A stretch of DNA of 32,000 nucleotides from Gemmata obscuriglobus (GCF_008065095.1 NZ_CP042911.1:1500001-1532000), one strand, 5' to 3'; counted from the first letter of the stretch, positions 1,526 to 32,000 are shown. Notes: generated by a model from the sequence alone, not told the origin. Numbers and translations: made by a program.

Positions 1526-1527
1526 TA

Positions 1528-9212: not shown

Positions 9213-9334
9213 GAGCGGCGCGGCGCGACGCGGACTGTGAGGCGATTCGCGCGCCCCGCCTTTATGCTTGCGTCCGTTTCCCGCCCGGCGGGGATGACCT
9301 TCGCGGAGGTTCTGCGACGGCCGGAGGAGCACAC

Positions 9335-12175: not shown

Positions 12176-12345
12176 CCCTACGCGAAACGACCTTCCGAGT
12201 GCGCGCAGCGAACTGCGGCGACACCGCGGTGCGGCCCGGTGCGGTGAGCGGCGCCGGAGCCGCGGTGGGGAAACCGGAGTGCGCGCTGCGGCCGACCGCG
12301 GCCCGGCGCACATGACACGGGTGAGGTCGGTTCGAGGGGCGTGTC

Positions 12346-15153: not shown

Positions 15154-15156
15154 CCT

Positions 15157-16482: not shown

Positions 16483-16556
16483 AGTGCGTCTCTCGACCGG
16501 GGCCGACGGTTCGGCCCGCGGTCGCCCCCTCGACCGATCCCGAACCTGAGGCCGCT

Positions 16557-17717: not shown

Positions 17718-18531
17718 CGGGCGGGGGGGCGAAATTGACTCCGGTCTGGCGTCCGGTTGTGTCCTGCACGCGTTGCACGGCCGGGAATGCCAACCATTCG
17801 GCGAGCGACCACACGTGATCGGTGAACCCGGCGACCATCGCCGGGGTTTGTGCCCGATAGCGGCCGTCCTCGCATTTGGCGCGTAGGGTCCGCATGTGCC
17901 AGCAGAAGTTGTCGCTGAAGTAGCGGAACGCGGTGGCGGCCCGGTGCGTGTCCCAGTCCTTGGAGAACCCGTAACCCTTGCGAACCTTGCGGCTACAGCG
18001 GTTCCGGTCGGTCCCGTTGTGCCGCTCCACGAAGCACGTGTTCACCACGGTGCTCACGGCCGGGGCCGCCAGCCCGGCGGCCCCGGTCCCGAACACCACC
18101 CGCGTGCTCACCCGCACCACCCGATTGTTCTTCTTCTCCTTGTGGACGGTGGCGTACGTCACCGCCGGTGGGACCACCGTGTATGGGTTCCGAGGGCGAC
18201 CCGGGCGACCGGTCCGCGGCGGGACGACCACGTGCCCGTAGGCGTCCCGGATGGCCTCCTCGTACACGGGGTACTCGTCGGATGTCATCAGCCGCATCAC
18301 CCGCCCCCCGGTCCGCCGGCGGAAGTCCCGGACCAGCGCGTGGGTCGCGTCGGCGGTCCGCTTGCCCACCACCACGCTCACCACCAGTCAGCTCTCCGGG
18401 TCCAGAGCCACGTGGTCCCAACAGTCCCCCCGTCGGGCGTTCTCGGGGTCGCAACTCTTCTGCTTCTGGCCGACGAAGGCCCACTTCTCGTCGAACGGGA
18501 CCTCATGGGTCTTGGGGGGAAAAAGCGACTC
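17479..18531 (-). pseudogene. IS1-like transposase catalytic part (InsB-like), interrupted
   Basis: This frame is +1 relative to the InsA-like ORF. It reads ...EVPFDEKWAFVGQKQKSCDPENARRGDCWDHVALDPES, then an in-frame TGA (18390-18388), then LVVSVVVGKRTADATH...TSDEYPVYEEAI...CFVERHNGTDRNRC...TPAMVAGFTDHVWSLAEWL. The frame stays open ~90 codons past the conserved end, running antisense into the DUF1501 gene until 17479. Confidence 0.65.
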
Positions 18532-18956
18532 ACTCGTCGTGCCGTTGGGTCGCGTGGTCGCCGGTCAGTCGGATGCACCAAGTGACGGTGTCGGGGTGCA
18601 CCCCGGTGAACCGAGCGGTCTTGCGGGTGCCGATCCCTTCGGCCACGTGGGCCAGGACCGCGACCGCCGTCGTCGGGGTGCGCCGTGTCCCGAATAGGGG
18701 CGTGCCCTTGCGCTCCGAGAACCGGGCCTTGCAGGTCGAGCACCGGAGCATCCGACGGGACTTATTCGGTCCATACCGCGAGGTCGCCGTCAGATTCCCG
18801 TGCCCCCGCTTCCCGACGTCGGCACAGCCCGGGTTCTGACAACAGAACGGCCCCAACTCGTCCATGATCCGTACCCTCGGTTCGCACCCCGCCCGAATTG
18901 ACCGAAATCGTTCTACGCCACGAGGACGCGGTTGTGCAGCGCAAGTAGGTCACCAC
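17711..18956 (-). mobile_element. IS1-family-like insertion sequence, apparently degenerate; boundaries approximate
   Basis: It contains zinc-finger/HTH-like and DDE-like transposase segments on the minus strand. Candidate ends are an 8-bp inverted pair GTGGTGAC (17711-17718) / GTCACCAC (18949-18956), or an imperfect 16-17-bp GC-rich inverted pair at 17718-17734 / 18880-18895. Neither pair is flanked by a clear target duplication. Confidence 0.55.
18530..18865 (-). CDS. IS1-like transposase N-terminal part (InsA-like: Cys-rich zinc finger + HTH)
   Basis: MDELGPFCCQNPGCADVGKRGHGNL...RMLRCSTCKARFSERKGTPLF...GIGTRKTARFTGVHPDTVTW. It ends at TGA 18532-18530, immediately before a T5C6 run on the coding strand. 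Confidence 0.7.
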   Translation of the reverse strand: MDELGPFCCQNPGCADVGKRGHGNLTATSRYGPNKSRRMLRCSTCKARFSERKGTPLFGTRRTPTTAVAVLAHVAEGIGTRKTARFTGVHPDTVTWCIRLTGDHATQRHDE

Positions 18957-19246
18957 CGAAGTATTGGTCTTCGACAGAAAGCCGGCGAAATGATATGGAA
19001 GGGTGGGTGTCGTTGTCGCTGACGGCAGTCGCAGCACTTGCATGGGACCGCGGCCTGCGGTTCCGGGTGGAGAGCGACTACCTCCCGTGGTCGTGGGTGA
19101 CCGGTGAGCTGTTCCAGGCGCCCGCCGCATCGTAACCGCATCCCTTCCGGCTGGATGATAACGAAGCTGTCGCCTACGGAATCTCAGGTTGCGAGCGTAA
19201 TCGGAGGTTCCGTAGACGTTGACACCAGGGAGCCGCTGAACGCGGT

Positions 19247-19423
19247 TCAGGTTGCCGCTTTAACCAGCGCCAAGATGCCGGCCTTAATTGCCTCGGGCAG
19301 CTTCGGCCAATTGGCGACGAGTGTGGCAAGTTCGGGGTCCATCGCCTCGTGCGCCGCTTTCTGCGCCGCCTCGCTTGTGAATTGCTGGTTTTCCGGCAGT
19401 TTCTGCGAAGGTTCGATTCCCAT
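19247..19423 (-). CDS. Small hypothetical ORF (58 aa)
   Basis: MGIEPSQKLPENQQFTSEAAQKAAHEAMDPELATLVANWPKLPEAIKAGILALVKAAT. GGGAG lies just upstream, an in-frame stop sits 5 codons before the ATG, and third-position GC is moderately high. The ORF is below the ORF-track size cutoff and I assign no function. Confidence 0.25.
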   Translation of the reverse strand: MGIEPSQKLPENQQFTSEAAQKAAHEAMDPELATLVANWPKLPEAIKAGILALVKAAT

Positions 19424-20163
19424 CCGCTCCCGCTGAAATCATGTCGCGTCCCCTGGTTCGCGTTCGAGCGCGGGGAAGGGCGGGGGGCCGGCTCCGTTCG
19501 GCACACCCCGCACATTCCGATCGCATTCCCCTCAAAACGCACATCCGGCAGTTTTCCCGGCCCGCGTGGGGCCGTCGGTCCCGGTTCGCGTCCCACAGCA
19601 GCAACCCACGCCCTGACACATCTCCGCCACAACTAGCGACCTGTTCACACGTTGCGACGCTTTCACTAATCGAAGCCGACAACCCTTCTGCGTTCACCGG
19701 GAGCGTTCTCCGGGTTTTGCGGGCACGATTCGGTGGTAGCGGCGACCAGCGAGCGGGTAGCGAATCGGCAGTCCGAAGCCCCGCAGATGTCCAGTCGTGG
19801 CCCCATCGCGTCTTTCTCGTGCCTTGTAACCCCCGTTACAGCTCTGCTCACGAGACGCGCCCGAATGGGGCGGTCGCGGTGCCCGCGCGGACCGTCCCCC
19901 TATTCACCTGATGGCACCGCGCGCGACCCGACGGCGGAAGAGTGTCGGTAGTGGGGAAGGGCGGTCTGGAGTGTGGCCCGCTCAGACCGAATCCAGTCGT
20001 TTCCCGTTCGGGCCGGTTCGGTCTGAAACTCATTGCAACCCGCACCCCCGCTCCGCGGGCGGCCCGGCGATTCGACCCCGCGGCTGTTCGGCGGTTGCGG
20101 CCCCGGGTAGACTCCACAGCACAACCAGCACGGCTCGTGCGCGCAGCTCCGAGGGTTCCGCCA

Positions 20164-21729
20164 GTGGCTCTGAAGAAGTCCGAACTGTACTCCTCGCTCT
20201 GGTCGAGCTGCGACGCGCTCCGCGGCGGCATGGACGCCAGCCAGTACAAGGACTACGTCCTGTTCATGCTGTTCATCAAGTATGTGAGCGACAAATACGC
20301 CGACAACCCGTTCCCGCCGATCAAGATCCCCGAAGGCGCCCGGTTCAAGGACATGGTCGCGCTCAAGGGCAAGCCCGACATCGGCGACCAGATCAACAAG
20401 AACGTGCTCGGCCCGATCGGCAAAGAGAACGGCATCGACTTCGGCGACCTGGACTTTAACGACGCCGCGAAGCTCGGCAGCGGCAAGGAGATGGTGGACC
20501 GGCTCACCACCCTCGTCGCCATCTTCGAGGACAAGCGGCTCGACTTCTCCAAGAACCGCGCCGACGGCGATGACATCCTCGGCGACGCCTACGAATACCT
20601 GATGCGGCACTTCGCCACCGAGAGCGGCAAGAGCAAGGGGCAGTTCTACACCCCGGCCGAGGTCAGCCGGATCATCGCGCAGGTGCTCGGCATCCGGGAC
20701 GCGAAAACAAGCGCGAATACGACCGTCTACGACCCGACGTGCGGGTCCGGCTCGCTGCTGCTGAAGGTGGCCGACGAGGCCCGAACGAAGCCCACGCTGT
20801 ACGGGCAGGAGAAGGACGCCGCCACCAGCGGCCTCGCCCGCATGAACATGATCCTGCACGACAACGCCGGCGCCCTCATCGTGCAGGGGAACACCCTCAC
20901 CGACCCCAAATTCAAGGACGGCGACGCGCTCAAGACCTTTGATTACGTCGTCGCCAACCCGCCGTTCTCCGACAAGCGGTGGAGCACCGGGCTCGACCCG
21001 CTCAAGGACACCTACGAGCGGTTCCAGCACTTCGGCGCCCCGCCGGCCAAACAGGGCGATTACGCGTACCTGCTCCACATCGTCCGCTCGCTCAAGAGCA
21101 CCGGCCGGGGCGCGTGCATCCTCCCCCACGGCGTGCTGTTCCGCGGCAACGCCGAAGCCGAGATCCGCAAGAAGCTCGTCGCCAAGCGGTACATTAAGGG
21201 CATCATCGGGCTGCCCGCGAACCTGTTCTACGGCACCGGCATCCCGGCCTGCATCATCGTCATCGACAAGCAGGACGCCGCCGCCCGCGCCGGCGTCTTC
21301 ATGATCGACGCCAGCGCCGGGTTCATGAAGGACGGCCCCAAGAACCGGCTCCGCGCCCGCGACATTCACAAGATCGTGGACGCCTTCACCCAGGGGCGGA
21401 CGATCCCGAAGTTCTCCCGGCTGGTGCCGTTCGAGGAGATCGAGAAGAACGATTTCAACCTGAACCTGCCGCGGTACATCGACAGCCAGGAGGCCGAAGA
21501 CCTTCAGAACATTGAGGGGCACCTGAAGGGCGGCGTCCCCGAGGCCGACGTCGCCGCGCTCCAGCGCTATTGGGACGTGTGCCCGAACCTGCGCAACGCG
21601 CTCTTCAAACCGAACCGGCCCGGGTTCGTCGATCTCGCGGTCGATAAGTCGGAATCCATCAGCTGTGCAGAAATGGAACTCTCCGCGTCTTGTGCTGCTT
21701 TATCGCGAAGTGCGGCTAGCGCGTATTAA
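20164..21729 (+). CDS. hsdM: Type I R-M methyltransferase subunit HsdM, with the 3' end replaced by foreign low-GC sequence (probably non-native C-terminus)
   Basis: GTG 20164 has GAGGG 8 nt upstream. Sequence reads ALKKSELYSSLWSSCDALRGGMDASQYKDYVLFMLFIKYVSDKY; motif I DPTCGSGSLLL; motif IV NPPFSDKRW; LPHGVLFRGNAEAEIRKKL; NDFNLNLPRYI. HsdM-like text stops near 21650 (…LAVDKSE), where GC falls, and the last ~26 codons (SISCAEMELSASCAALSRSAASAY) look unrelated. Confidence 0.85.
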   Translation: MALKKSELYSSLWSSCDALRGGMDASQYKDYVLFMLFIKYVSDKYADNPFPPIKIPEGARFKDMVALKGKPDIGDQINKNVLGPIGKENGIDFGDLDFNDAAKLGSGKEMVDRLTTLVAIFEDKRLDFSKNRADGDDILGDAYEYLMRHFATESGKSKGQFYTPAEVSRIIAQVLGIRDAKTSANTTVYDPTCGSGSLLLKVADEARTKPTLYGQEKDAATSGLARMNMILHDNAGALIVQGNTLTDPKFKDGDALKTFDYVVANPPFSDKRWSTGLDPLKDTYERFQHFGAPPAKQGDYAYLLHIVRSLKSTGRGACILPHGVLFRGNAEAEIRKKLVAKRYIKGIIGLPANLFYGTGIPACIIVIDKQDAAARAGVFMIDASAGFMKDGPKNRLRARDIHKIVDAFTQGRTIPKFSRLVPFEEIEKNDFNLNLPRYIDSQEAEDLQNIEGHLKGGVPEADVAALQRYWDVCPNLRNALFKPNRPGFVDLAVDKSESISCAEMELSASCAALSRSAASAY

Positions 21730-21730
21730 T

Positions 21731-21756
21731 CTGCAAGAGGCCTTAGCCTCTTGCAG
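21731..21756. terminator. Perfect 11-bp stem / 4-nt loop hairpin between convergent ORFs
   Basis: CTGCAAGAGGC-CTTA-GCCTCTTGCAG lies immediately after the hsdM-tail stop (21727-21729) and downstream of the minus-strand DUF262 gene. It is followed by only a short T run (GCTTTG), so this is a weak intrinsic terminator call. Confidence 0.4.
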
Positions 21757-21872
21757 GCTTTGAAACGATCGCCAGTGTAAGTGGTAGTTGCTGCCTCGGG
21801 GAAAATCATGGAAAATAAGGGATTTAATGTACTTTGGCACGCCATGAGAGACAGAGTTGTCGCTCCTCAGAA

Positions 21873-23480
21873 TTAAATCAATCGCTCGATGGATCGTGTA
21901 ATATGCTCAGATCGAGCCTTCAGGAAACCTGCAAAGTCGTCCGATTTGAGAAACGGAATAGCTGCTTCCGGGATCAGATTGCTCTCCATAACATTGAGGA
22001 ACTCTGCCCCGAGATCGGCCTCCATCTGCGCGACGTAATCGCTTGGCCTGCGATCGGAGATAACCTTATTGTGTTCCGCGCTCAACATGCAGATGTTAGC
22101 GAGTGAGTTCGTCAGCTCGGAAGAAATGCCGAGGTTTTTTAGGAACGCTTGCGGGAAGATGTGGTGAAACTCTTTCCGATTGTACGCTGACAGTGCTCGT
22201 GCCGTGTCGATGGCGGTACCATTCGTCAGGTTCCGCGGGTGCGCCGAGGCGAGGAGCGCGACGTAACCGTTTGCGATTGCTGCTCCCTTTCGGAATTCGG
22301 TCTTCTGAATAGCCGCCGCGGACGGTGCGTTCCCAAAGCCAGTCAGTAGTGCAATGTCTTCAAATGAGTCGATAACGGTTTTTAAATCGTCATCGAACAA
22401 ACCCTCGCCTCCGCGGCGATATCGCTCGGCGAATGACGTTCGCCAGAACCACTTCCGGAGCACGTCGCGAGCAGCGACGGACAGGCGTGGGCGTTTGCAG
22501 AATACATGAGACATGACGACTAGTTGCCGTTCGTAGGGTAGAAATCCTACCGAACGTACGTGAAGCTCATTCGTGAGAAAGTCGACCGCTCGTTTCATTG
22601 CCTCCCGCACTTCGGTCATGTTCGCTTGCAATTCTCTATCGGTCTTGCTTCGAAGTTTAAGAATCGTGTCGCGTTTTGCGCTCCCAGAGATATGGGCCGA
22701 TAATACTTGGAGCATTGCCACCGGGGAAACGTCTCCGTAATCTTTGATAGCAAGGTCTTGAATGCACCCATCAAACTCACTACGCAGGTTGAAATTAGCG
22801 CTCCAAGTTGCGGCGATCATTAGGTCGAACACTGTGAGCTTCGTGCCGGTGCTGTTGATCCGCTCGAAGATTAGGGCTACCTGTTCGACGGTCGGTTCCG
22901 TGACAGTTACAATTGGGATCGAGTACTCACGGAATGTTTCCAAGAGAACGTCTGCTTTTCCCATCAGATCATCGGCATCATGTCTTTGCAGTAAGGATAG
23001 TTGGAAGTTTCGGAACTTTTTTGTGTCAAACAGAATATTCATTCGCAGGTGCGTCGGAAGCGGCGATTCTGGTGTTGGGATGAATGCCTTGTCAGGCGTC
23101 GCGTGGCACAGGTCGAAGCAGATGTCGAACACACTGTCGTCGTCTGGGTCACCTTGCCACATCAGAACTCCGTAGATGGTCGTGATCCGTTGTTGACCAT
23201 CGAGTACATAGTTCTGCGGGTATTGATCCTTTGTGTCAGGCAGCTTGAATCCCCCAATGTCGCGGGCCGCGCTGAGCCGCTCTTTGGTCAGCCAGAATAG
23301 CAGGCTGCCGATGGGGTAGCCACGGTACACGCTTTCCAGCAGTTCGATCACCTGACGCTGGTTCCATACGTACTGACGCTGGAAAACGGGGATCTTGATG
23401 TCGCCGTCTTCGAGCCGGGTTATCAGCCGGGAGATCCGTTCCGGTTTGGCGTCCGGCGGATTCTTGATGTGGATGGGCAC
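21873..23480 (-). CDS. DUF262 + DUF1524 protein (GmrSD / BrxU / SspE-like, candidate type IV modification-dependent nuclease), 535 aa
   Basis: N-terminal IPVFQRQYVWNQRQVIELLESVYRGYPIGSLLFW and VLDGQQRITTIYGV (the DGQQR motif of DUF262). C-terminal FHHIFPQAFL...NSLANICMLSAEHNKVISDRRPSDY (His-Me finger-like, DUF1524). It starts at a GTG. Its GC content is visibly much lower than the flanks. Confidence 0.85.
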   Translation of the reverse strand: MPIHIKNPPDAKPERISRLITRLEDGDIKIPVFQRQYVWNQRQVIELLESVYRGYPIGSLLFWLTKERLSAARDIGGFKLPDTKDQYPQNYVLDGQQRITTIYGVLMWQGDPDDDSVFDICFDLCHATPDKAFIPTPESPLPTHLRMNILFDTKKFRNFQLSLLQRHDADDLMGKADVLLETFREYSIPIVTVTEPTVEQVALIFERINSTGTKLTVFDLMIAATWSANFNLRSEFDGCIQDLAIKDYGDVSPVAMLQVLSAHISGSAKRDTILKLRSKTDRELQANMTEVREAMKRAVDFLTNELHVRSVGFLPYERQLVVMSHVFCKRPRLSVAARDVLRKWFWRTSFAERYRRGGEGLFDDDLKTVIDSFEDIALLTGFGNAPSAAAIQKTEFRKGAAIANGYVALLASAHPRNLTNGTAIDTARALSAYNRKEFHHIFPQAFLKNLGISSELTNSLANICMLSAEHNKVISDRRPSDYVAQMEADLGAEFLNVMESNLIPEAAIPFLKSDDFAGFLKARSEHITRSIERLI

Positions 23481-23586
23481 GTTATTTCCCGAAAGGGTAC
23501 GGTTTTGATGGTGCTATGATCCAGCGCGGGAGTCGCGGCGCCAAGGTTGGAGTGGAGAAGAAGGACTCTGAAAGCTCTGAATCCTG

Positions 23587-26034
23587 GTGACGGTGACGCG
23601 CTTGGTCCGGTGGCAAGAATTGCTCGGACCGTTTGGTCGGCTGACCGAGCTGATGCGCGACTTCGTGCTGTTCGACGGCGGGGTGAAGAAGGTGCCGCGG
23701 GTCCACCAGTACTTCGGCATCAAGGAGGCGCAGGCGCGCGTGCGCCAGAAGCAGGGCGGCATCATCTGGCACACGCAGGGGAGCGGGAAGAGCATCGTGA
23801 TGGTGCTCCTCGCCAAGTGGATTCTGGAAGCCAACTCGAACGCCCGGGTCGCGATCGTCACCGACCGCGACGAACTGGACAAGCAGATCGAGGGCGTTTT
23901 CACGGACGCCGGGGAGACGATCCACCGCACCGGCAGCGGGCGCGAGCTGCTGCGGCAACTCGGGCAGGCGACCCCGCGGCTCCTGTGCTCGCTGGTCCAC
24001 AAGTTCGGCAAGAAGGGGGAGAAGGGAAAGCGGCTGAGCGACGCCCAATTTAAGCAGTTCATTACCGAGCTGGGAAACCAGCCGTGCCAGACCGTCGGCG
24101 TGCTGTTCGTCTTCGTCGACGAATGCCACCGCACGGAAAGCGGTCGGCTCAACGAGGTCATGAAAGCCGTCATGAGGGACGCGGTTTTCATCGGCTTCAC
24201 GGGCACGCCGTTGCTCAAAGAGGATCAGAAAAAGAGCGTCGAGGTCTTCGGCAGCTACATCCACACGTACAAGTTCAGCGAGGCGGTCGAGGACGACGTG
24301 GTGCTGGACCTCGTGTACGAGGCCCGCGACATCGACCAGGCCCTCGGCTCGCAAGAGCGGATCGACGCGTGGTTCGACGCCAAGACGAAGGGGCTCAACG
24401 ACTGGCAGAGGGACGAGCTGAAGAACAAGTGGGGCACGATGCAAAGCGTGCTCAGCTCCAAGGGGCGCATGGGCCGCGTGGTCGACGACATCGTGTTCGA
24501 CTTCAGCGTGAAGCCCCGGCTCTCCAGCGAGCGCGGCAACGCGATCCTGGTGGCGTCGAGCATCTACGAGGCGTGCAAGTACTTCACGCTGTTCCGGGAG
24601 ACGCCGCTGCGGGGCAAGTGCGCGGTGGTCACGTCGTACAACCCGCAGACGCAGGACGTGACGCTGGAAGAGACCGGCGCGAACACCCGGACCGACAAGC
24701 AGTTCATTTACGACACCTACACGGAACTGCTCAAGGACGTCGTCGCCGAGCCCGGTATGAGCAAGACCGAGACCTACGAGGAGGTCGCCAAACAGCGGTT
24801 CATGGAGGAGCCGGCGCAGATGAAGCTCCTGATCGTGGTGGACAAGCTGCTCACCGGGTTCGACGCGCCGTCCTGCACGTACCTGTACATCGACAAGTCG
24901 ATGCGGGACCACGGGCTGTTTCAGGCGATCTGCCGGACCAACCGCCTCGACGGCGAGGACAAGGATTTCGGCTACATCGTGGACTACAAAGACCTGTTCA
25001 AGCGGCTCATCAACGAGAAGGGGACGGGCGCGCTCCAGGTGTACAGTTCCGAACTCGACAACAGCGCCGGCGGGACCGACCCGAAGGTGCTGATGCAGGA
25101 CCGGCTGAAGAAGGGGAAGGAGCGCCTGGACACCGCCGCCGAGATGCTGGCGCTGCTGTGCGAGCCGGTGGCGCTGCCGAAGGGCGAGCTGGAGCACATT
25201 CACTACTTCTGCGGCAACACCGAGGTGCCCACCGATCTGAAGGCCCGCGAGCCGCAGCGGGTCATGCTCTACAAGGCGACCGCCGGGTTCGTTCGCGCCT
25301 ACGCCAACATCGCGGACGAACTGGCCCCGGCCGGCTACAGCGACGCGGACGTGTCCCGGCTCAAGGGGCACCTCGACCACTACCTGAAGGTCCGCGAGGT
25401 GGTCCGGAAGGCGAGCGGGGAGTTCCTCGACCTGAAGCCGTTCGAGGCCGACATGCGGCACCTCATCGACAAGTACATTGAGGCGTCCGGGCCGCGCAAG
25501 ATTTCGCCGTTCGACGGCGTGGGGTTGCTGGACCTGATCGCGACGACCGGCGCGGCGGACGCGATCGACGCGCAGCTCGGCGACATCAAGGGGAACGGCG
25601 AGGCGGTGGCCGAAACGATCGAGAACAACGTCCGCCGCAAGATCATCAAGGAGGAACTGACGGACCCGGCGTACTACGCGAAGATGTCGGCGCTGCTGGA
25701 CGAGATCATCGCGGCGCGCAAGGCCAAGGCGATCGAGTACGAGGAGTATTTGAAGCAGATCGCGGAGCTGGCGAAGCTGGTGCGGGCGGGCCACGGCGCC
25801 GAGACCCCGGCGGCGCTGGACACGCCGGGCAAGCGGGCGCTGTTCAGCAACCTGGGCCAGAACGAGACCCTGGCGCTGCAACTCGACGGCGCGGTACGGG
25901 CGGCCCGGCAGGACGCCTGGCGCGGCGTTCAGGCCCGCGAGCAGGCGGTGAAGGCGGCGCTGTACGGCGTGCTGAAGGACGTGGCCGAGGTGGAGCGGGT
26001 GTTCCTCATCATCAAGGCGCAGGCGGAGTACTGA
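23587..26034 (+). CDS. hsdR: Type I restriction enzyme HsdR, motor/helicase and C-terminal parts only (N-terminal endonuclease domain absent)
   Basis: Motif I HTQGSGKS sits at residue ~65, then VFVDECHRTESG (DEAH-type motif II), GFTGTPL, LTGFDAP, QAICRTNR and a DUF3387-like tail. An in-frame TGA at 23578-23580 limits upstream extension. Full-length HsdR normally has ~200+ aa of PD-(D/E)xK domain before motif I. Confidence 0.85.
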   Translation: MTVTRLVRWQELLGPFGRLTELMRDFVLFDGGVKKVPRVHQYFGIKEAQARVRQKQGGIIWHTQGSGKSIVMVLLAKWILEANSNARVAIVTDRDELDKQIEGVFTDAGETIHRTGSGRELLRQLGQATPRLLCSLVHKFGKKGEKGKRLSDAQFKQFITELGNQPCQTVGVLFVFVDECHRTESGRLNEVMKAVMRDAVFIGFTGTPLLKEDQKKSVEVFGSYIHTYKFSEAVEDDVVLDLVYEARDIDQALGSQERIDAWFDAKTKGLNDWQRDELKNKWGTMQSVLSSKGRMGRVVDDIVFDFSVKPRLSSERGNAILVASSIYEACKYFTLFRETPLRGKCAVVTSYNPQTQDVTLEETGANTRTDKQFIYDTYTELLKDVVAEPGMSKTETYEEVAKQRFMEEPAQMKLLIVVDKLLTGFDAPSCTYLYIDKSMRDHGLFQAICRTNRLDGEDKDFGYIVDYKDLFKRLINEKGTGALQVYSSELDNSAGGTDPKVLMQDRLKKGKERLDTAAEMLALLCEPVALPKGELEHIHYFCGNTEVPTDLKAREPQRVMLYKATAGFVRAYANIADELAPAGYSDADVSRLKGHLDHYLKVREVVRKASGEFLDLKPFEADMRHLIDKYIEASGPRKISPFDGVGLLDLIATTGAADAIDAQLGDIKGNGEAVAETIENNVRRKIIKEELTDPAYYAKMSALLDEIIAARKAKAIEYEEYLKQIAELAKLVRAGHGAETPAALDTPGKRALFSNLGQNETLALQLDGAVRAARQDAWRGVQAREQAVKAALYGVLKDVAEVERVFLIIKAQAEY

Positions 26035-26750
26035 TGGGCACGCAGATCCAGCTCGGCGCCTGCACCGCCGACGTGTCGTTCAAGAGCATCAAGAACGTCC
26101 ACCTGAGCGTCCACCCGCCGGCCGGGCGGGTGAGCATTTCCGCGCCCGCCCGCATGAGCCTGGACACCGTCCGCGTCTTCGCCCTTTCCAAGCTGCCGTG
26201 GATCAAGCAGCAACAGAACCGGCTGCGCGCGCAAGAGCGCGAGCCCCCGCGCGAGTACATCGACCGCGAGAGCCATTACGTCTGGGGCCGGCGGTACCTG
26301 ATGGAGGTGAGCGAACACGAGCAGCCGCCGGTCGTCGCTTTGCGGCACAAAAAGTTGGTGCTTCAGGTGCGCCCGGGAACGGACGAAGCCCGGCGCCGCG
26401 AACTGCTGGACGGCTGGTACCGGGAGCGGGTGCGGGCCGCGGCGTCGGAACTGATCGCCCGGTGGGAGCCGGTGCTAGGGGTGAAGGTGGGGCGGGTGTT
26501 CGTGCAGCGGATGAAGACCCGGTGGGGCAGTTGCAGCCCCGCGCGGGGCAACATCCGGCTGAACACCGAACTCGCGAAGAAGCCGCGGCCGTGCCTGGAG
26601 TACATCATCGTTCACGAGATGGTTCACCTGCTGGAGCCGACCCACAACGCCCGGTTCGTGGCGCTGATGGACCGGTTCATGCCGCACTGGCAGGCCCGCC
26701 GCGAGGCGCTCAACCGCCTGCCCGTGCGGCACGAGACCTGGAGCCATTAA
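26034..26750 (+). CDS. YgjP-like metal-dependent hydrolase (DUF45 / M48-type HExxH peptidase)
   Basis: RWGSCSPARGNIRLNTELAKKPRPCLEYIIVHEMVHLLEPTHNARF contains HEMVH. The ATG overlaps the hsdR stop (cTGATGg at 26031-26036). This is a common passenger downstream of hsdR. Confidence 0.85.
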   Translation: MGTQIQLGACTADVSFKSIKNVHLSVHPPAGRVSISAPARMSLDTVRVFALSKLPWIKQQQNRLRAQEREPPREYIDRESHYVWGRRYLMEVSEHEQPPVVALRHKKLVLQVRPGTDEARRRELLDGWYRERVRAAASELIARWEPVLGVKVGRVFVQRMKTRWGSCSPARGNIRLNTELAKKPRPCLEYIIVHEMVHLLEPTHNARFVALMDRFMPHWQARREALNRLPVRHETWSH

Positions 26751-26770: not shown

Positions 26771-27796
26771 GTGCCGCGCCGCCGGGAGGTTGAAGAGACC
26801 CGCCGGGCGGCGGGGTCGGCGCACGTCAGTGTCGGTCGGAGGGGCTGGTTGCTCCCGGCGCGGACACACTGGAACCGCTCCGGAGCCGCGGCCCTCGAAT
26901 TACTCCGCGGGCCGCTCGGGCTCGCGCCGGGAACGGGCGCCGTGGTGAACCTGCGCGACGGCTTCCCGTCCGGCCCGGGGCGCTCGGCCGCTCGGGCGGC
27001 GGCCACCCTTGCGGAGCTGCGGCGGGTCGTCGGCCGCGCCCCCGGCGCCCCGCACCTCATCGACGGGGCGGTTCTGGCCGGAACGGTGGGCGGCTGCACC
27101 GCCCACTTCGAGGCGGACATGCTCACGGCCCGCGAGCCCGACGTGCTGATCCGCGTGGCCGAAGTGAAGTCGTTCCCCAAGGTGGACGACCGCGTCGACC
27201 CCGAGCAGCTCGGGGCGGCGCTCGACCAGATCGCGGTGTACGTGCTGCTGGCGCGCGACGCGGTCGGTGCGGTCGGTGCCGATCCCGAGTTGGTGAGCGA
27301 CCGCGGGTTACTCATCACCCCGCACAACGTGGGGCTCACACCGACCCTTTCGGAGGCGTGCGTCGGCCCGCGGGTTGTCCGCATCCGGCGGGTGCTCGCC
27401 GCGCTTCCGGACGCGGATGAGGTGGTTGCGGCGACGCCGGCCGGGGTCTCGTTCGGCCCGATTGCGGACACGGGAGCGGAAGAAGCGAGTCGCCTCGACG
27501 CCCTGCACCAGATCGCCGATACGGTCGGGACCGCGTACGCGCCGAACTGCCTCACCACCTGCGGGAGCGCCCGCTTCTGCCGCGCCCGGGCCGTCGCCGC
27601 CGGCGCCCCGTGCGTCACCGGCCCCGCGGCGGTGCGCCTGCTGCCGGAGGTGCTCGACCTCGGGCGGGCCGAATCACTCACCCGCGGCGCCCCGCCGACG
27701 CCCCAGGAAGCGCCCGCCGCCGCGCTGCTCGCGAGCGCCGGCCGGCTGATCGACGAGGCCGTGCCCGCCCCGCTCCCGACCCGGAGGACCGCATGA
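26771..27796 (+). CDS. RecB/Cas4-like PD-(D/E)xK nuclease with a 4-Cys cluster
   Basis: In order: GGCTAHFEAD, EPDVLIRVAEVKSF (D...E-x-K), LDQIAVYVLL (QxxxY), then NCLTTCGSARFC (C-x3-C-x5-C). The start is uncertain. GTG 26771 is the first start after the upstream gene. TTG 26849 has a strong GGAGGGG upstream. The listed ATG at 26198 overlaps the peptidase gene by 550 nt and is rejected. Confidence 0.6.
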   Translation: MPRRREVEETRRAAGSAHVSVGRRGWLLPARTHWNRSGAAALELLRGPLGLAPGTGAVVNLRDGFPSGPGRSAARAAATLAELRRVVGRAPGAPHLIDGAVLAGTVGGCTAHFEADMLTAREPDVLIRVAEVKSFPKVDDRVDPEQLGAALDQIAVYVLLARDAVGAVGADPELVSDRGLLITPHNVGLTPTLSEACVGPRVVRIRRVLAALPDADEVVAATPAGVSFGPIADTGAEEASRLDALHQIADTVGTAYAPNCLTTCGSARFCRARAVAAGAPCVTGPAAVRLLPEVLDLGRAESLTRGAPPTPQEAPAAALLASAGRLIDEAVPAPLPTRRTA

Positions 27797-29259
27797 ACCC
27801 CATCGATGTCGCACTCGCCGCCCGCGCTTTTGCGGCCCGCCGGGGAGTACCCAGCGCCACCGTTCGGCACCGCCGGCTGAGCGCGAAGCCGCTGGCGGTC
27901 GTCGCCTGGCAGCTCGGGGGCGAGCCGTTTTCGGTCGCCGCCCTCGGCTGGGGCGACCGCGCGAACCAGCTCCATACGACCGTCCCCGGCGAGTCGCGGA
28001 ACCGCACGCTGCTGTTCGCCGCGCTGCTACCGTTCGCGCACTGGTTCAACGCACGCTTCGACGCGCCGGCCCTTGATCGGGAAACGATCACCCGCGGCGA
28101 GCACCGGTTCACGATCGCCCGCACCGCCCCCCAGGTGATGGTCCCGAACCGCGCGACGGTCGAACTGCTCGGCCGCCTGGGGCGCCGGCTGGCGTACCTG
28201 CCGACCGAGGGGCCGAACGCCGCCGATCCGGCGCTCGTGCGCCTCGGGCGCCACCTGCGGTTCCTCTGGGACCACGCCTCGTTCCCGGGGCCGCAACTGC
28301 TGGTCGCACTGACCGACCTGATGAACGCGCACTGGATGACGCCCCAATCCGGCAGCGAGCGCCAGTCCCTCCCGGCGCTGGAGGCGTTCATCGACCCGCC
28401 GCCGGGGCTGGACGGGTTCGCGGCGGCCGAACGGGCCGAGTTCTGCCCGGTCGGCCCGGCGCCGGACGGGGGCGATGACGACCGGCTCATACCGCTCGTC
28501 GAACGGTTCAACGCGGCCCGCGGTCGGAGCACCGACCCGGCGGTGGTCGGTCCGCTGCGGGCACCGATCGAAGATCACTACCGTCCGCTGCTGGGCCGAT
28601 CGTGGGGGCTGTTGTGGCGCTGTCGCGACCGGGAGCTGTCGCGCCCCGAAGCCCCCTCGGTGGGCCGCCGGTGGGACGCCGACCGGCAGGACTACACCCG
28701 ACATATGGATTGGCTGAACCAGAACGGCCTGCGGCGCACGCGCCAGACCCCGCGCCAGGCCGCAACGGCGTTCCGCAACACCGAAGAGGCCGGGCGCCTG
28801 CTCGAGGCCGAAGAGGCGTGCGACGATCCGCTGAAGATGGCCGCGTACGTACTGGCCGGCAAAGCCGTTCGCGGTCGGGTGGTGGCGCTCGACCCGAACC
28901 ACAAGGAGCCCGGCCCCAAGCGCACGGTTCGCCGCCCACTGGTCACGGTGCGGTCGCCGGAGCCGTGCCGGATCCCGATCGGCCGGGAGCTGTGGTGGAC
29001 CGGCCACGCCGACGGAACCGAGTACGTGGTCGAAGACGTCGTGCCCGCGCCGGGCGGCGGGTCCGATGTGGTGCTGAAGCTCACGACCTCGACGGCGACC
29101 AACCCGCTGCCGTCGGTCGGCGCGACCGTCTGCTTTTCGGTCCACTCGACGAAGCCGAGATGGCTCGGGCAGTTACCCGATACGCACCCCTGGACGCACG
29201 TCCCGCCGGCCCCGGCCGCGCCGCCGTCACCGCTGGAATTCCTTACCCCGGAGGCTTGA
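27793..29259 (+). CDS. Hypothetical protein, 488 aa, no recognisable motif
   Basis: The ATG overlaps the stop of the upstream nuclease gene (ATGA at 27793-27796), and GGAGGA lies 4 nt upstream. Third-position GC is high throughout. The listed ORF start at 27610 is an upstream over-extension. Confidence 0.7.
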   Translation: MNPIDVALAARAFAARRGVPSATVRHRRLSAKPLAVVAWQLGGEPFSVAALGWGDRANQLHTTVPGESRNRTLLFAALLPFAHWFNARFDAPALDRETITRGEHRFTIARTAPQVMVPNRATVELLGRLGRRLAYLPTEGPNAADPALVRLGRHLRFLWDHASFPGPQLLVALTDLMNAHWMTPQSGSERQSLPALEAFIDPPPGLDGFAAAERAEFCPVGPAPDGGDDDRLIPLVERFNAARGRSTDPAVVGPLRAPIEDHYRPLLGRSWGLLWRCRDRELSRPEAPSVGRRWDADRQDYTRHMDWLNQNGLRRTRQTPRQAATAFRNTEEAGRLLEAEEACDDPLKMAAYVLAGKAVRGRVVALDPNHKEPGPKRTVRRPLVTVRSPEPCRIPIGRELWWTGHADGTEYVVEDVVPAPGGGSDVVLKLTTSTATNPLPSVGATVCFSVHSTKPRWLGQLPDTHPWTHVPPAPAAPPSPLEFLTPEA

Positions 29260-29262
29260 GAG

Positions 29263-30633
29263 ATGGCGACCGCCGCGCCCCTGTTCGATACTTCTGTGGT
29301 CGCCGCCGCCGAGGCGACCGTGACTGCTGCGATCGGCGCCGCGCTGAACGGTCGCGGTGCCCACCGCGCGGTCGTCGTGCCCGCTCCGGCCGGTGCGGGA
29401 AAGAGCCACCTGACCGTCACGGCGGTGAACGAAGCCCGACAGCAAGGGCTGCGGGTGGTGGTCGCGGCCCCGACCAACGAGCAGGCGTTCGGGCTGGTGG
29501 GCGCGATCGCGGCGCGGCACTGCGCGGGCCACCCGGACCGGGCCGTAACGTTCGTTCCCGCCAGCGACGTCACGCTCCCGCCACGGGTGTCGGCCCTGGC
29601 TGGCGTGCGTGTGGCGAAAGCCAAGGACGCCAGCGGGCACGAGCTGATCGTGGGAACGCTCAGCAAGCTGGGCGACGCGTTCGCCCGCGGCGACCTGGAG
29701 CCGTTCGACCTGCTGCTGGTGGACGAGGCGTACCAGGCCGATTCGGCGAAGTACTTCGCGGTCGGCGATCTCGCTCCGGTCCACCTGCTCGTGGGCGACG
29801 CGGGCCAGATCAACCCGTTCGCCACGGTCGCGGGCCCGGGCCGGTGGCGCGGGCTCCCCGAAGACCCACTCCAGACGGCCGTGGGGGTTCTGTTGCGCAA
29901 CCATCCGCACACGCCGGTATATCGGCTACCGATCACCCGGAGGCTCGACCCGCGAGCGGCGTCGGTGGCGCGGCTGTTCTACCCCGATTTGGCGTTTAAT
30001 GCTGCGGTGCTCCCCGGTGTGCGCGAACTGCGGCTGACACGGGGCGGCGCATCGCACCGACTCGACGCGGCCCTCGACACCGCTGCGCGAGACGGATGGG
30101 CGCACGTGGAGCTACCGCGCGGGGCGGTGCTTCAGGCGGACCCGGAAGCCGTCACCCTGATTGCGGACCTTGTGGAGCGCCTGTTCGAGCGCGGCCCGCG
30201 GACCCGGTGCGAACGGCAGACGGTTCTAAGTGCCCTCGCGCCGAAGCAGGTTGCGGTCGGGGTCAGTCACAACGACCAGAAGGACCACCTGCGCGCCGCG
30301 CTGGACGCACGCGGGCTCTCCGCGGTGACCGTCGAGACCGCGAACAAGTTGCAAGGGCTGGAGTTCGAGGTCACGTTCGTCTGGCACCCACTGTCCGGGT
30401 TACCCGAGGCGGACGAGTTCCACCTGGACCCGGGGCGGATGTGCGTGCTGCTGACCCGGCACCGGCACGCGTGCGTGGTGGTCGGCCGGGCGGGCGACCG
30501 CGAGCTGGTGGACGATTGCCCGCCGCCCCCGACCGCCGCGTACCTGGGGCACGACCCGGACCCGGTCCTCGACGGCTGGGAGGTTCACCGCGAGGTGTTC
30601 GCGGCGCTCGAGCCGTGGCGTGTGAGTGCATAG
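29263..30633 (+). CDS. SF1 helicase-like ATPase (RecD/Dda-like, AAA_30 + UvrD_C_2-type), 456 aa
   Basis: Walker A APAGAGKS, Walker B FDLLLVDEAYQ, motif III LLVGDAGQINPF, motif V TANKLQGLEFEVTFV, motif VI MCVLLTRHRHACVVVG. The ATG lies 3 nt after the upstream stop, and GGAGG is 8 nt upstream. Confidence 0.8.
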   Translation: MATAAPLFDTSVVAAAEATVTAAIGAALNGRGAHRAVVVPAPAGAGKSHLTVTAVNEARQQGLRVVVAAPTNEQAFGLVGAIAARHCAGHPDRAVTFVPASDVTLPPRVSALAGVRVAKAKDASGHELIVGTLSKLGDAFARGDLEPFDLLLVDEAYQADSAKYFAVGDLAPVHLLVGDAGQINPFATVAGPGRWRGLPEDPLQTAVGVLLRNHPHTPVYRLPITRRLDPRAASVARLFYPDLAFNAAVLPGVRELRLTRGGASHRLDAALDTAARDGWAHVELPRGAVLQADPEAVTLIADLVERLFERGPRTRCERQTVLSALAPKQVAVGVSHNDQKDHLRAALDARGLSAVTVETANKLQGLEFEVTFVWHPLSGLPEADEFHLDPGRMCVLLTRHRHACVVVGRAGDRELVDDCPPPPTAAYLGHDPDPVLDGWEVHREVFAALEPWRVSA

Positions 30634-30901
30634 CGCCCGGTACGGGTCGCCTGGTCCGAACGGAGTACGCGTGATGCTTCTGTCACAGCAGATGCTGTAA
30701 AACTAAAACTGGGAAGTATGTAATGCCTATTCGCCGCTGTCCGTCAGATACTGTGACGGCCGGCAGCAGGGCCAACGAAACTAGCCGCCACAAAGGCGGT
30801 CTAGCGGCGTCCGGTTCTGACCGCCTGCAGCGTCTCGCTTAGTCGAGGCCTTATTCGCAACGTGGCGGTGGCATGAAAGAAGACGAAACACAACGGGGGG
30901 A

Positions 30902-31708
30902 GTGACCCGCGCGCGTCCGGCGTCCGCGGAAGCTCGAGCCGCCCGAAGTCCCGGCGAGAGGAGCCACGCGAGCGCCATGCCCCACCCGATTGCCCCACAA
31001 CCACTGCCGGACGACCATGACGGTTGGGCCGAATTGGCAGCCGACGCAAGAGCCCCAGAGAAGAACCGGCGCGGGGCATTCGAGCGGCTCACCACATGCA
31101 TCGAAGGCGTCGCGCGCCGGGTGTCGGTCCGATTCGCAGGGCGGCGAGAGGACTTCTGTGCCGGGGTGTTGGGGGACGTCTGGGAGGTCATCGGCCGCTT
31201 CCCTGCGGGCGCCAACTTCGAGGCCTGGTGTTATATCGTGCTCCACAACCGTTGGACCGACTTGACGCGGTGGGAACAGTGCCGGGAGAGCCAGAGTTTA
31301 CTCGGACATCCGGAGCCGTCCGCCCCGGACATCCGCGCCGCGTTGGAGCGGGGACTCGATTCCGCGGCGATCTTCGGCGACGACGACCTCCGCGAGATCC
31401 GCGCATGGCCGCTGCGGGACCGCGTCGTCCTGCTCTGCCTCGCGTCCCTTTGGAGGAAAGTCCCTGACGACGAGTGGCAAGGCTGGGTGCGCGACCACCG
31501 CGCCGCCCACGGCACGCCGGCGTCTGACCCGTTCCCACCCGACTCCCTCGACCGGGGTAACGGAATCGCGGACCAGAATGCGCTGTTGGCCCGGGAACTC
31601 GACCTGCGGCGCAACACTCTTTCTGTGATCCTTCACCGCGGCAAGGTCCGTCTTGGGGTGCTCCGCTACGTGCGAGACCTGATGGGACCGGACGGGGGGC
31701 GACCGTGA
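30902..31708 (+). CDS. Atypical sigma-70/ECF-like protein (weak call)
   Basis: Region 2-like FEAWCYIVLHNRWTDLTRWEQ and region 4-like WPLRDRVVLLCL ... LARELDLRRNTLSVILHRGKVRL are separated by a ~50-aa insertion. Codon third positions are GC-rich. The start is either GTG 30902 or ATG 30977. Confidence 0.45.
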   Translation: MTRARPASAEARAARSPGERSHASAMPHPIAPQPLPDDHDGWAELAADARAPEKNRRGAFERLTTCIEGVARRVSVRFAGRREDFCAGVLGDVWEVIGRFPAGANFEAWCYIVLHNRWTDLTRWEQCRESQSLLGHPEPSAPDIRAALERGLDSAAIFGDDDLREIRAWPLRDRVVLLCLASLWRKVPDDEWQGWVRDHRAAHGTPASDPFPPDSLDRGNGIADQNALLARELDLRRNTLSVILHRGKVRLGVLRYVRDLMGPDGGRP

Positions 31709-32000
31709 CAACGTGGACCAACGTACCCGACCCGCGCGACGACGCGGCCCCCTGCGCCGGCCCGTGCGCGGTGCAGGTCGAGGAGCACCGGTGGCGGCAC
31801 ATAACTGAGGAGCACGTGTCGAACGTGCGGGAGCCGTGGGACGAATGGCTTACCCCGGCGTTGGCGGATGGGCTCCGCGCGGCGTGGGCACCGGGTTCGA
31901 CCGAGGAGGGGCGGCGGGCGTGCATCGCCCGGGTGGCAGAAATGGTCGAGCGGGATTTGCGGCGGTGCCTCACCGCGCCACTCGCAGTCCTCTACGACGA
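31705..32000 (+). CDS. Hypothetical protein, 5' part only (runs off the window)
   Basis: The GTG at 31705 overlaps the upstream stop (GTGA). The frame is open to the window end and reads VTTWTNVPDPRDDAAPCAGPCAVQVEEHRWRHITEEHVSNVREPWDEWL... I recognise no family. Confidence 0.3.
   Translation, partial: MTTWTNVPDPRDDAAPCAGPCAVQVEEHRWRHITEEHVSNVREPWDEWLTPALADGLRAAWAPGSTEEGRRACIARVAEMVERDLRRCLTAPLAVLYD

What the first reader, a model, noticed from the sequence alone, without database searches (positions are those of the whole stretch)
26771..30633. Unassigned three-gene operon: Cas4-like 4-Cys nuclease, 489-aa orphan, RecD/Dda-like SF1 helicase
Seen in sequence: three co-directional ORFs are translationally coupled, with an ATGA overlap at 27793-27796 and a 3-nt gap at 29260-29262. 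GGAGG-type sites precede genes 2 and 3. Gene 1 carries the full RecB-family signature in order: an upstream Cys, D, E-x-K, QxxxY and a C-terminal C-x3-C-x5-C. Gene 3 carries SF1 motifs I, II, III, V and VI but is short (456 aa), with no obvious accessory domains. Established knowledge: D..ExK + QxxxY + 4 Cys defines Cas4/AddB-type Fe-S nucleases, and QG-E-F / TR motifs define RecD/Dda-like helicases. Inference: the nuclease + unknown + helicase combination does not match the gene content I remember for any named system, including Hachiman, Gabija, Mokosh, Nhi, Shango, DISARM, Druantia, Zorya and Dnd/Ssp. It sits directly downstream of an R-M remnant and a GmrSD-like gene, which is a defence-island context. 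It could be a new anti-phage nuclease-helicase system, or a minimal RecBCD/AddAB-like end-processing machine.
Basis: partly seen in the sequence, partly recalled or inferred. Interest (0 to 1): 0.85.

Follow-up and report, generated by a model that had tools for sequence, protein, structure and literature searches.

The report
Decayed copy, unnamed nuclease-helicase cassette
The three genes are a real, widely scattered and so far unnamed gene cassette (an iron-sulfur nuclease, a protein of unknown fold and a helicase) that sits among anti-phage genes in many bacteria, but the copy in this Gemmata window has lost the front end of its nuclease gene.

Summary
The ORFs, the ATGA overlap, the 3-nt gap and the GGAGG sites are as described. 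The window is Gemmata obscuriglobus. The trio is a conserved unit: same order in 36 of 36 genome loci long enough to show it, across at least seven phyla. In 24 loci a fourth gene (g0, about 260 aa) precedes it. Gene 1 has no Pfam, NCBIfam or PADLOC hit, but a confident model of a full-length homologue matches EXO5, RecE, MGME1, AdnAB and Cas4 nucleases. Gene 2 (pLDDT 89.6) matches nothing in PDB or BFVD. Gene 3 is a Upf1/IGHMBP2/Dna2-like SF1B helicase rather than RecD/Dda.

The first ~82 codons of gene 1 are replaced, removing the family's invariant N-terminal Cys and motif I (RGxxFE). The "upstream Cys" it cited is not conserved. So this copy probably lacks a working nuclease.

Neighbours elsewhere include type I and II R-M, Kiwa, Wadjet, Pgl/BREX, Bil, integrases and an RtcR-like regulator. 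I read it as an uncharacterised candidate anti-MGE system resembling a split Dna2. Defence itself is inferred from context only.

The parts
26885..27796 (+). Gene 1 (g1), retained 3' part: 303 codons of a family that is normally about 390 aa. It is a PD-(D/E)XK nuclease with the EXO5/Cas4/RecB fold. It keeps motif II D, E-V-K, Q-x3-Y and C-x3-C-x5-C, and lacks the N-terminal Cys and motif I.
   Evidence: Family HMM hit covers 26885-27790, profile positions 86-388, E 2e-134. Family alignments are. tblastn finds no N-terminal part in the window. A fold search with the full-length homologue model gives EXO5, RecE, MGME1, AdnAB and Cas4.
26849..26884 (+). Non-homologous new 5' end of g1. It starts at TTG 26849, preceded by GGAGG at 26838-26842. 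This is the start used in NCBI's 315-aa annotation (GobsT_13020).
   Evidence: Sequence reading. P0001 is 315 aa and 100% identical.
26884..26885 (.). Rearrangement breakpoint. To the right, the window is 96% identical to Gemmata algarum JC673 through to the window end. To the left there is no similarity, and G. algarum has the intact g1 5' end, a sigma-54-like promoter and an RtcR-like regulator instead.
   Evidence: blastn aligns window 26885-32000 to L005 9093-14211 at 96.0%.
27793..29259 (+). Gene 2 (g2), 488 aa. It is the signature protein of the cassette. It has a confident predicted structure with no detectable relative. The C-terminal part is a small beta-barrel (about residues 358-449) followed by a conserved PW-x-H tail.
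   Evidence: Homologues are 54-96% identical. The family comprises 685 clusters at 50% identity. The model has pLDDT 89.6 and pTM 0.86. There is no PDB or BFVD match below E 0.01, no PDB sequence-profile hit and no Pfam, NCBIfam, PADLOC or PHROGs hit.
29263..30633 (+). Gene 3 (g3), 456 aa. It is a minimal SF1B helicase core of the Upf1-like group (AAA_11/AAA_12/AAA_30), with all motifs intact.
   Evidence: Pfam hits. Family alignment with invariant G44-x-G-K47, D154-E-x-x-Q158, G178-D-x-G-Q182 and Q364-G. Profile against PDB gives IGHMBP2, Upf1 and Dna2, with RecD2 weaker.
19942..26750 (.). Upstream context, not part of the cassette. It holds hsdM (19942-21729, +), a GmrSD_N gene (21873-23480, -, GC about 0.53), an hsdR without its HSDR_N nuclease domain (23587-26034, +) and a YgjP-like metallopeptidase gene (26034-26750, +). 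No hsdS is present. This block abuts the breakpoint that truncates g1.
   Evidence: Pfam hits. Composition dip to 0.53-0.65 GC at 19-25 kb.

Best explanation
The three ORFs are one copy of a conserved, horizontally mobile cassette that has no name in the libraries and literature I could search. The Planctomycete form has three genes, g1-g2-g3. Most other lineages add a fourth gene, g0, upstream.

Shown:
- g1 belongs to a family with the fold of the Fe-S-containing RecB/Cas4/EXO5 nucleases. It has an invariant motif I E, a motif II D, E-x-K, Q-x3-Y and four invariant Cys (one N-terminal plus C-x3-C-x5-C).
- g3 is a bare Upf1/Dna2-like SF1B helicase core.
- g2 (and g0) are well conserved and have no detectable relatives.
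- The genes are translationally coupled and always colinear.

Inferred: the proteins form one complex that works like a split Dna2. The 5'-3' helicase g3 would translocate on single-stranded DNA from an end or nick. It would feed that DNA to the g1 nuclease. g2 (plus g0) would act as scaffold or sensor and decide which DNA is attacked. The purpose would be to restrict phages or plasmids.

In this window the cassette is damaged. A rearrangement at 26884/26885 joined it to a decayed type I R-M and GmrSD block. It removed the first ~82 codons of g1 (the Fe-S ligand Cys and the motif I helix). It also removed the ancestral upstream region. In the sister species that region carries a sigma-54-like promoter and a divergent RtcR-like (CARF/AAA+) activator. 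The Gemmata obscuriglobus copy therefore most likely lacks nuclease activity and its native regulation.
For: Unit conservation. g1-g2-g3 occur in the same order and tightly packed in 36 of 36 genome loci whose contigs extend far enough. The loci come from Planctomycetota, Myxococcota, Geobacter, Accumulibacter, Verrucomicrobiota, Acidobacteriota and Actinomycetota. The same holds in Zavarzinella, other MAGs, Paraburkholderia atlantica and Streptomyces chromosomes and linear plasmids. g0 lies directly upstream in 24 loci. Rare g1-g2 and g2-g3 fusion proteins exist.

Folds. The g1 model has pLDDT 91.1. Foldseek gives EXO5 (probability 1.00, E 4e-4), RecE, MGME1, AdnAB, lambda exonuclease and Cas4. 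The g3 profile matches IGHMBP2 (6e-12), Upf1 (7e-9) and Dna2 (2e-8).

Context. Neighbours include type I R-M (window), Bil and UvrD-PDDEXK, Wadjet and SbcCD, Kiwa with Vsr and a C5 methylase, and SNF2, a dynamin-like GTPase and UvrD. Integrases occur nearby. PglW, REase_I, RtcR-CARF, BrxH and MTase_II are among 116 nearest neighbours.

Truncation.

Decayed copies also exist elsewhere: L010 has a truncated g1 and a split g3, and L050 has a 205-aa g2. That turnover is typical of accessory genes.
Against: - No experiment links the cassette to defence. The argument is guilt by association plus domain logic.
- g1 is not recognised by any RecB/Cas4/EXO5 sequence profile. Foldseek TM-scores are low (0.21-0.28 on the query).
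- I could not inspect model coordinates to confirm that the four Cys cluster in space.
- The C-x3-C spacing differs from the C-x2-C I recall for Cas4/AddB.
- Complex formation and DNA (rather than RNA) as substrate are inferred. Upf1-like helicases often act on RNA.
- The retained part of the window's g1 shows strong purifying selection against G. algarum (pN/pS 0.08). It also has a plausible new SD and TTG start. So the truncation may be recent, or the shortened protein may still do something.
- DefenseFinder and post-2023 PADLOC models were not available, so the system may already have a name.
Confidence: 0.55

Rival explanations
1. The cassette serves a mobile element rather than the host. 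It might be a replication, recombination or end-maintenance module, or an anti-defence or inter-element competition module. It would be carried by integrative elements and Streptomyces linear replicons.
For: Serine or tyrosine recombinases and prophage-like genes lie within 10 kb in several loci. In Streptomyces the four-gene form sits a few kb from replicon ends, in a fixed arrangement of SbcCD, then g0-g3, then Wadjet, on two plasmids and one chromosome arm. A Sak4-like ATPase gene is near it in Accumulibacter. Cas4-like exonuclease plus SF1B helicase pairs are, from general knowledge, common in phage replication modules.
Against: There is no hit in 50,697 phage records or in PHROGs for g0-g2. 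Only 4 of 72,556 plasmid records carry it, and all are predicted non-mobilizable. No constant partner such as an integrase, replication initiator or relaxase travels with it, and its flanks differ from locus to locus. Being cargo on a mobile element is also what defence systems look like.
Confidence: 0.2
2. The cassette is a housekeeping DNA end-processing or repair machine. This is the first reader's alternative of a minimal RecBCD/AddAB/AdnAB or bacterial Dna2 analogue.
For: The domain pairing (Fe-S RecB-family nuclease plus SF1B helicase) is that of Dna2. AdnAB nuclease domains appear among the fold hits. Adjacency to SbcCD in Streptomyces could point to break processing.
Against: The distribution is patchy across phyla, at 40-96% identity. 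It is absent from most genomes of the same taxa. It sits in low-GC or variable islands. Copies are frequently truncated or split (this window), so the function is not essential. One MAG carries two or three diverged copies. There is no SF1A motor and no nuclease-helicase fusion as in AddAB, AdnAB or RecBCD.
Confidence: 0.1
3. In this particular genome the three ORFs are a dead remnant with no function at all. g2 and g3 would be drifting pseudogene-like ORFs kept open by high GC.
For: g1 is 5'-truncated, and the native promoter and regulator region is gone. The adjacent R-M is itself a remnant.
Against: g2 and g3 are full length with every invariant residue intact. pN/pS against G. algarum is 0.17-0.19, and 0.08 for the retained g1 part. 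Translational coupling signals are intact.
Confidence: 0.15

Closest known systems
Dna2 (eukaryotic/archaeal nuclease-helicase)
   Same: Dna2 pairs a RecB/Cas4-type PD-(D/E)XK nuclease carrying a 4-Cys Fe-S cluster with a Upf1-like SF1B helicase. The Dna2 helicase domain is among the best PDB profile hits of g3 (E 2.4e-8).
   Different: Dna2 is a single polypeptide with OB, barrel and stalk domains, and it has a housekeeping role. Here the nuclease and helicase are separate proteins, and a 488-aa protein of unknown fold is encoded between them. The distribution is island-borne. No sequence-level homology of g1 to Dna2 was detected.
EXO5 / Cas4 / AddB-type Fe-S nucleases (RecB family)
   Same: They are the top fold matches of the g1 family model (EXO5 probability 1.00; Cas4 at rank 32). 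The motif order is the same: N-terminal Cys, motif I E, D, E-x-K, Q-x3-Y, then three C-terminal Cys.
   Different: No Pfam, NCBIfam or PDB sequence-profile match was found. The spacing is C-x3-C-x5-C, and about 100 residues separate Q-x3-Y from the Cys triad. There is also a C-terminal helical extension of about 70 aa. The window copy lacks the first Cys and motif I.
Nuclease-plus-helicase anti-phage systems (Nhi, Hachiman HamAB, Gabija GajAB, Mokosh)
   Same: The general logic is the same: a nuclease coupled to a helicase, encoded in defence islands. g3 shares only generic helicase motifs with MkoA, MkoC and GajB models.
   Different: Neither g1 nor g2 hits any of these models. The g3 hits cover only 40-90 residues around the Walker or motif II regions, at E 1e-5 to 1e-9. 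From general knowledge, those systems use different helicase classes (SF2 in Hachiman, UvrD-like SF1A in Gabija) and different nuclease folds (OLD/Toprim, DUF1837, PLD).
AddAB / AdnAB / RecBCD end-resection machines
   Same: The RecB-family nuclease fold is shared. AdnAB nuclease domains appear among the fold hits.
   Different: Those machines use SF1A UvrD-like motors fused to the nuclease and are core repair genes. Here the motor is a 456-aa SF1B core with no fusion, and the genes are accessory.

Membership tests
RecB/Cas4/EXO5-type Fe-S PD-(D/E)XK nucleases | Catalytic motifs in order: motif I (helix with conserved E), motif II D, motif III E-x-K, motif IV Q-x3-Y | tested here: inconclusive
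   The family meets this: E82, D168, E183-x-K185 and Q205-x3-Y209 are invariant in 94 sequences. The window copy keeps D, E-V-K and Q-x3-Y but has lost motif I.
RecB/Cas4/EXO5-type Fe-S PD-(D/E)XK nucleases | Four Cys ligands for a 4Fe-4S cluster (one N-terminal, three C-terminal) | tested here: not met
In full-length homologues C42, C313, C317 and C323 are invariant. The window copy has only the three C-terminal Cys. Spatial clustering in the model could not be checked, and metal content cannot be tested here.
RecB/Cas4/EXO5-type Fe-S PD-(D/E)XK nucleases | Match to the family's sequence profiles (Pfam PDDEXK_1, Cas_Cas4, Exo5 and similar) | tested here: not met
   No Pfam, NCBIfam or PADLOC hit at E up to 1 for the window protein, and none at E up to 0.1 for four full-length homologues. 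The family profile against PDB sequences gave only a chance SepF hit.
RecB/Cas4/EXO5-type Fe-S PD-(D/E)XK nucleases | Three-dimensional fold | tested here: met
   The AlphaFold2 model of P0009 has pLDDT 91.1. Foldseek against PDB returns EXO5, RecE, MGME1, AdnAB, lambda exonuclease and Cas4, with probability 0.72-1.00 and best E 3.9e-4. TM-scores are low, at 0.21-0.28 on the query.
SF1B helicases, Upf1-like versus RecD/Dda-like | Helicase motifs I, II, III, V and VI, and profile match | tested here: met
   The motifs are invariant in 15 sequences. Pfam hits are AAA_30 8.5e-9, AAA_12 1.1e-8 and AAA_11. The nearest solved relatives are IGHMBP2, Upf1 and Dna2. RecD2 scores only E 2.8e-4, and the PHROGs Dda-like model only 0.009. 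So the protein is SF1B, and closer to the Upf1-like group than to RecD/Dda.
Named anti-phage systems in PADLOC-DB v2.0.0 (Hachiman, Gabija, Mokosh, Nhi, Shango, DISARM, Druantia, Zorya, Dnd/Ssp, PDC candidates and others) | Profile hits to the system's signature proteins | tested here: not met
   g0, g1 and g2 from four lineages gave no hit at E up to 0.1-1. g3 gave only short motif-level hits to MkoA, MkoC, GajB and DpdJ. DefenseFinder and later model sets were not available.
AddAB / AdnAB / RecBCD | SF1A (UvrD-like) motor fused to or paired with a RecB nuclease, and a core-genome repair role | tested here: not met
   g3 is SF1B, and UvrD-helicase Pfam models do not hit its N-terminal half. 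g1 has no helicase domain. The distribution is accessory and patchy.
Anti-phage defence system (functional class) | Demonstrated protection against phage or plasmid | not testable with these tools
   Only context is available: R-M, Kiwa, Wadjet, Pgl/BREX, Bil and GmrSD neighbours.

The most novel reading that the evidence does not exclude
The (g0)-g1-g2-g3 cassette is a previously unnamed, phylogenetically widespread anti-phage or anti-plasmid system. It would be built as a split Dna2-like machine: an Fe-S nuclease plus a Upf1-like helicase, held together or targeted by two proteins of new fold. In the Gemmata lineage it would be switched on by a CARF-domain, sigma-54-dependent RtcR-like activator. 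That would link a nucleic-acid-damage or cyclic-nucleotide signal to induced DNA degradation.
Probability: 0.35. Interest if true: 0.75.

Novelty: new variant of a known kind. Interest (0 to 1): 0.58.

Why it matters
If the cassette does defend cells, it adds a new multi-gene system to the catalogue. It occurs in Streptomyces, Paraburkholderia, Geobacter, Accumulibacter, Gemmataceae and many soil MAGs. Its two signature proteins are invisible to current annotation, so it is being missed by defence-finding pipelines.

Mechanistically, it would be a natural experiment in which the Dna2 nuclease-helicase partnership is split into separate subunits. It would also give a handle on what g2 and g0 contribute.

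For this window specifically, the value is as a cautionary case. A motif-complete-looking nuclease is in fact a truncated remnant at a rearrangement junction.

Tried and rejected
- Sequence-profile assignment of g1 and g2 found nothing. I tried Pfam, NCBIfam, PADLOC and PHROGs, plus PDB phmmer/hmmsearch with family profiles.
- g2 fold searches against PDB and BFVD gave only insignificant small-barrel hits to Upf1, Sen1, HerA and phage neck proteins. I do not build on them.
- hhalign of g2 against g1 and g3 showed no relation, so g2 is not a degenerate copy of either.
- I looked for the missing g1 5' end elsewhere in the window, in case an island had split the gene. It is absent.
- I tested whether type I R-M is an obligatory partner. 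It is adjacent in most Gemmataceae loci, but those R-M systems are unrelated to one another (HsdM about 26% identical). It is absent from actinobacterial loci. I rejected it as a component.
- Multi-copy 12.9-kb segments in one MAG could indicate a transposable unit. I found no ends or transposase, and they may be strain variants. Not pursued.
- A strict sigma-54 promoter pattern upstream of the cassette was found only in G. algarum, with a near-match in L012. It is therefore not a general feature.
- Six literature searches found no paper naming this gene set.
- My home-made GC3 gene caller missed some genes. Neighbour statistics are therefore qualitative.

Full report
**1. Observation**

The window is Gemmata obscuriglobus. 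The 315-aa protein GobsT_13020 is 100% identical to the gene 1 ORF.

The three ORFs exist as described:
- The gene 1 stop and the gene 2 start overlap as ATGA at 27793-27796, with GGAGG just upstream.
- Gene 2 stops at 29257-29259. GAG follows, then ATG at 29263, with GGAGG at about 29250.
- Upstream lie an HsdM gene, a minus-strand GmrSD_N gene in a GC trough, an HsdR gene without its HSDR_N nuclease domain, and a YgjP-like gene. There is no hsdS, so 'R-M remnant plus GmrSD' is correct.

**2.

Homologues of gene 1 (g1) are about 390 aa long. Aligned to them, the window ORF is homologous only from about residue 86 of the family profile.

The missing segment carries an invariant Cys (C42 in P0009). 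It also carries an invariant S-P-F...R-G-x-x-F-E motif in a long first helix (model). These correspond to the first Fe-S ligand and motif I of RecB-family nucleases.

tblastn finds the missing part nowhere in the window. Against Gemmata algarum JC673 (locus L005), the window is 96% identical from exactly 26885 to its end and unrelated to the left. L005 has the intact g1. So 26884/26885 is a rearrangement junction.

NCBI's annotated start, TTG 26849, has a GGAGG 6-7 nt upstream. A 315-aa product may therefore be made. The retained part shows pN/pS 0.08 against G. algarum, and g2 and g3 show 0.17 and 0.19. The event may be recent, or the remainder may still be under constraint.

**3. The cassette elsewhere**

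A scan of one genome per species with the g2 profile returned 43 loci. HMMs for g1, g2 and g3 show the three genes in the same order and tightly spaced in all 36 loci that extend far enough. Five more loci are cut by contig ends after g1-g2, and two are fragments.

Hosts span Gemmataceae, Polyangiaceae and other 'delta' MAGs, Geobacter, Accumulibacter, Verrucomicrobiota, Acidobacteriota and many Actinomycetota.

Clustering of flanking ORFs revealed a fourth gene, g0. It is about 260 aa, with invariant RRDE and S-x-W...S-x-R-x-D-H-L motifs. It lies directly upstream of g1 in 24 loci. It is absent from most Planctomycete and 'delta' loci.

Family sizes:
- g0 has 1,715 clusters at 90% identity, all labelled 'hypothetical'. 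They include Paraburkholderia atlantica and many Streptomyces.
- g2 has 685 clusters at 50% identity with E up to 1e-3.

A few proteins fuse g1-g2 or g2-g3. That is consistent with a physical complex, although assembly artefacts are possible.

Distant four-gene versions (g2 about 29% identical) lie near the ends of Streptomyces linear plasmids and of one chromosome. The fixed arrangement there is SbcCD (divergent), then g0-g3, then JetABCD.

**4. The proteins**

- **g1.** No Pfam, NCBIfam, PADLOC or PHROGs hit, for five members tested. The family profile finds nothing real in PDB sequences. An AlphaFold2 model of full-length P0009 (pLDDT 91.1) matches human EXO5 (E 3.9e-4, probability 1.00). 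It also matches RecE, MGME1, AdnAB nuclease domains, lambda exonuclease and Cas4. Together with the invariant E...D...ExK...QxxxY and four Cys, this supports a Cas4/EXO5-like Fe-S nuclease at the fold and motif level. Sequence-profile support is absent.
- **g2.** The model is confident (pLDDT 89.6, pTM 0.86). It has an N-terminal alpha/beta domain, a long helical middle and a C-terminal small barrel. Nothing in PDB or BFVD scores below E 0.01. It is unrelated to g1 or g3 by hhalign.
- **g3.** AAA_30, AAA_12 and AAA_11 hits. All SF1 motifs are invariant. The nearest solved relatives are IGHMBP2, Upf1 and Dna2, with RecD2 weak. It is a bare Upf1-like SF1B core.

**5. Context**

Defence and mobility genes recur next to the cassette:
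- Type I R-M in the window and in most Gemmataceae loci. At least two unrelated R-M lineages are involved, so it is not an obligatory partner.
- Bil and UvrD-PDDEXK.
- SNF2, a dynamin-like GTPase and UvrD.
- Kiwa, with Vsr and a C5 methylase.
- Wadjet.
- Among 116 nearest neighbours: PglW, type I REase, BrxH, type II methylases, RtcR-CARF regulators and integrases.
- Recombinases and prophage genes.

There is no hit among phage genomes.

In G. algarum, L008 and L012, a divergent sigma-54 activator lies just upstream. This group matches PADLOC's RtcR-CARF models (three neighbour proteins, best E 3e-160). G. algarum has TGGCAC-N5-GTGC about 165 nt before g1, and L012 has a near-match. That regulatory block is what the window lost.

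**6. Interpretation**

The best-supported reading is an uncharacterised accessory cassette, most likely an anti-MGE system. Its enzymatic core resembles Dna2 split into two proteins. The window holds a damaged copy.

Shown: unit conservation, folds, motifs, truncation and context.

Inferred: complex formation, DNA substrate, the role of g2 and g0, and defence itself.

The rivals are an MGE-serving module, a housekeeping repair machine, and a dead remnant. They are weighed in their own section.

**7. Novelty**

No named system matched in PADLOC-DB v2.0.0, and six literature searches found none. Newer DefenseFinder models could not be checked.

I rate it a new variant of a known kind (nuclease-helicase defence-type modules). 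It has two signature proteins of unknown fold. The specific locus in the window is a decayed example, which lowers its own value.

Noticed in passing
window 3204-15153 (+): Four tandem paralogous ORFs of 935-994 aa. Each has an N-terminal ECF-type sigma factor (Sigma70_r2 plus r4_2) fused to a long C-terminal region with CarboxypepD_reg and Big_1-like repeats. DUF1800 and DUF1501 genes follow at 15157-17717. This is an unusual sigma-factor architecture repeated four times.
   Followed up: partly
window 902-2783 (+): An isolated C-terminal fragment of an N6_Mtase (HsdM-like, 207 aa; 42% identical to the window's other HsdM) is followed directly by a DDE_Tnp_1 transposase gene. This is a second R-M remnant about 18 kb from the first.
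   Followed up: partly
L005 6948-8850 (Gemmata algarum JC673); also L008 and L012: A divergent RtcR-like regulator (Sigma54_activat plus HTH_8) lies upstream of the intact cassette. The PADLOC RtcR-CARF models match three neighbour proteins (best E 3e-160). A TGGCAC-N5-GTGC sigma-54-type promoter lies about 165 nt before g1. L012 has TGGCAC-N5-TTGT. This suggests signal-induced expression, and the region is missing from the window.
   Followed up: partly
L048 (Streptomyces sp. NBC_01244 plasmid), L049 (S. genisteinicus plasmid), L054 (Streptomyces sp. 5.8 chromosome, 7-28 kb from the contig end): The arrangement is fixed: SbcD-SbcC (divergent), then g0-g1-g2-g3, then Wadjet JetABCD in L048 and L054. 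It lies close to the ends of linear replicons. Whether SbcCD is a functional partner in Streptomyces is open.
   Followed up: no
P0241, P0353, P0383, P0265 (metagenomic proteins): Single polypeptides cover g1+g2 (882 and 713 aa) or g2+g3 (933 and 638 aa). They could be true gene fusions that support a complex, or frameshift or assembly artefacts at the overlapping stop/start.
   Followed up: partly
L026, L028 and L041 (one Actinomycetota MAG, MFD03399.bin.1.15): One MAG holds two or three copies of the cassette. L026 and L028 share an 88%-identical 12.9-kb segment with sharp ends (6846-19745). L041 is 99% identical to L026. These could be paralogous islands or co-binned strains.
   Followed up: no
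window 21873-23480 (-): The GmrSD_N gene sits in the GC minimum of the window (0.53, against about 0.70). It replaces the expected hsdS and the 5' nuclease-domain part of hsdR. It looks like a recent insertion that disabled the type I R-M.
   Followed up: no
L010 7892-12310; L050 11179-11796: Other decayed copies of the cassette exist. L010 has g1 reduced to profile positions 237-379 and g3 split by a roughly 1.1-kb insert. L050 has g2 reduced to 205 aa.
   Followed up: no
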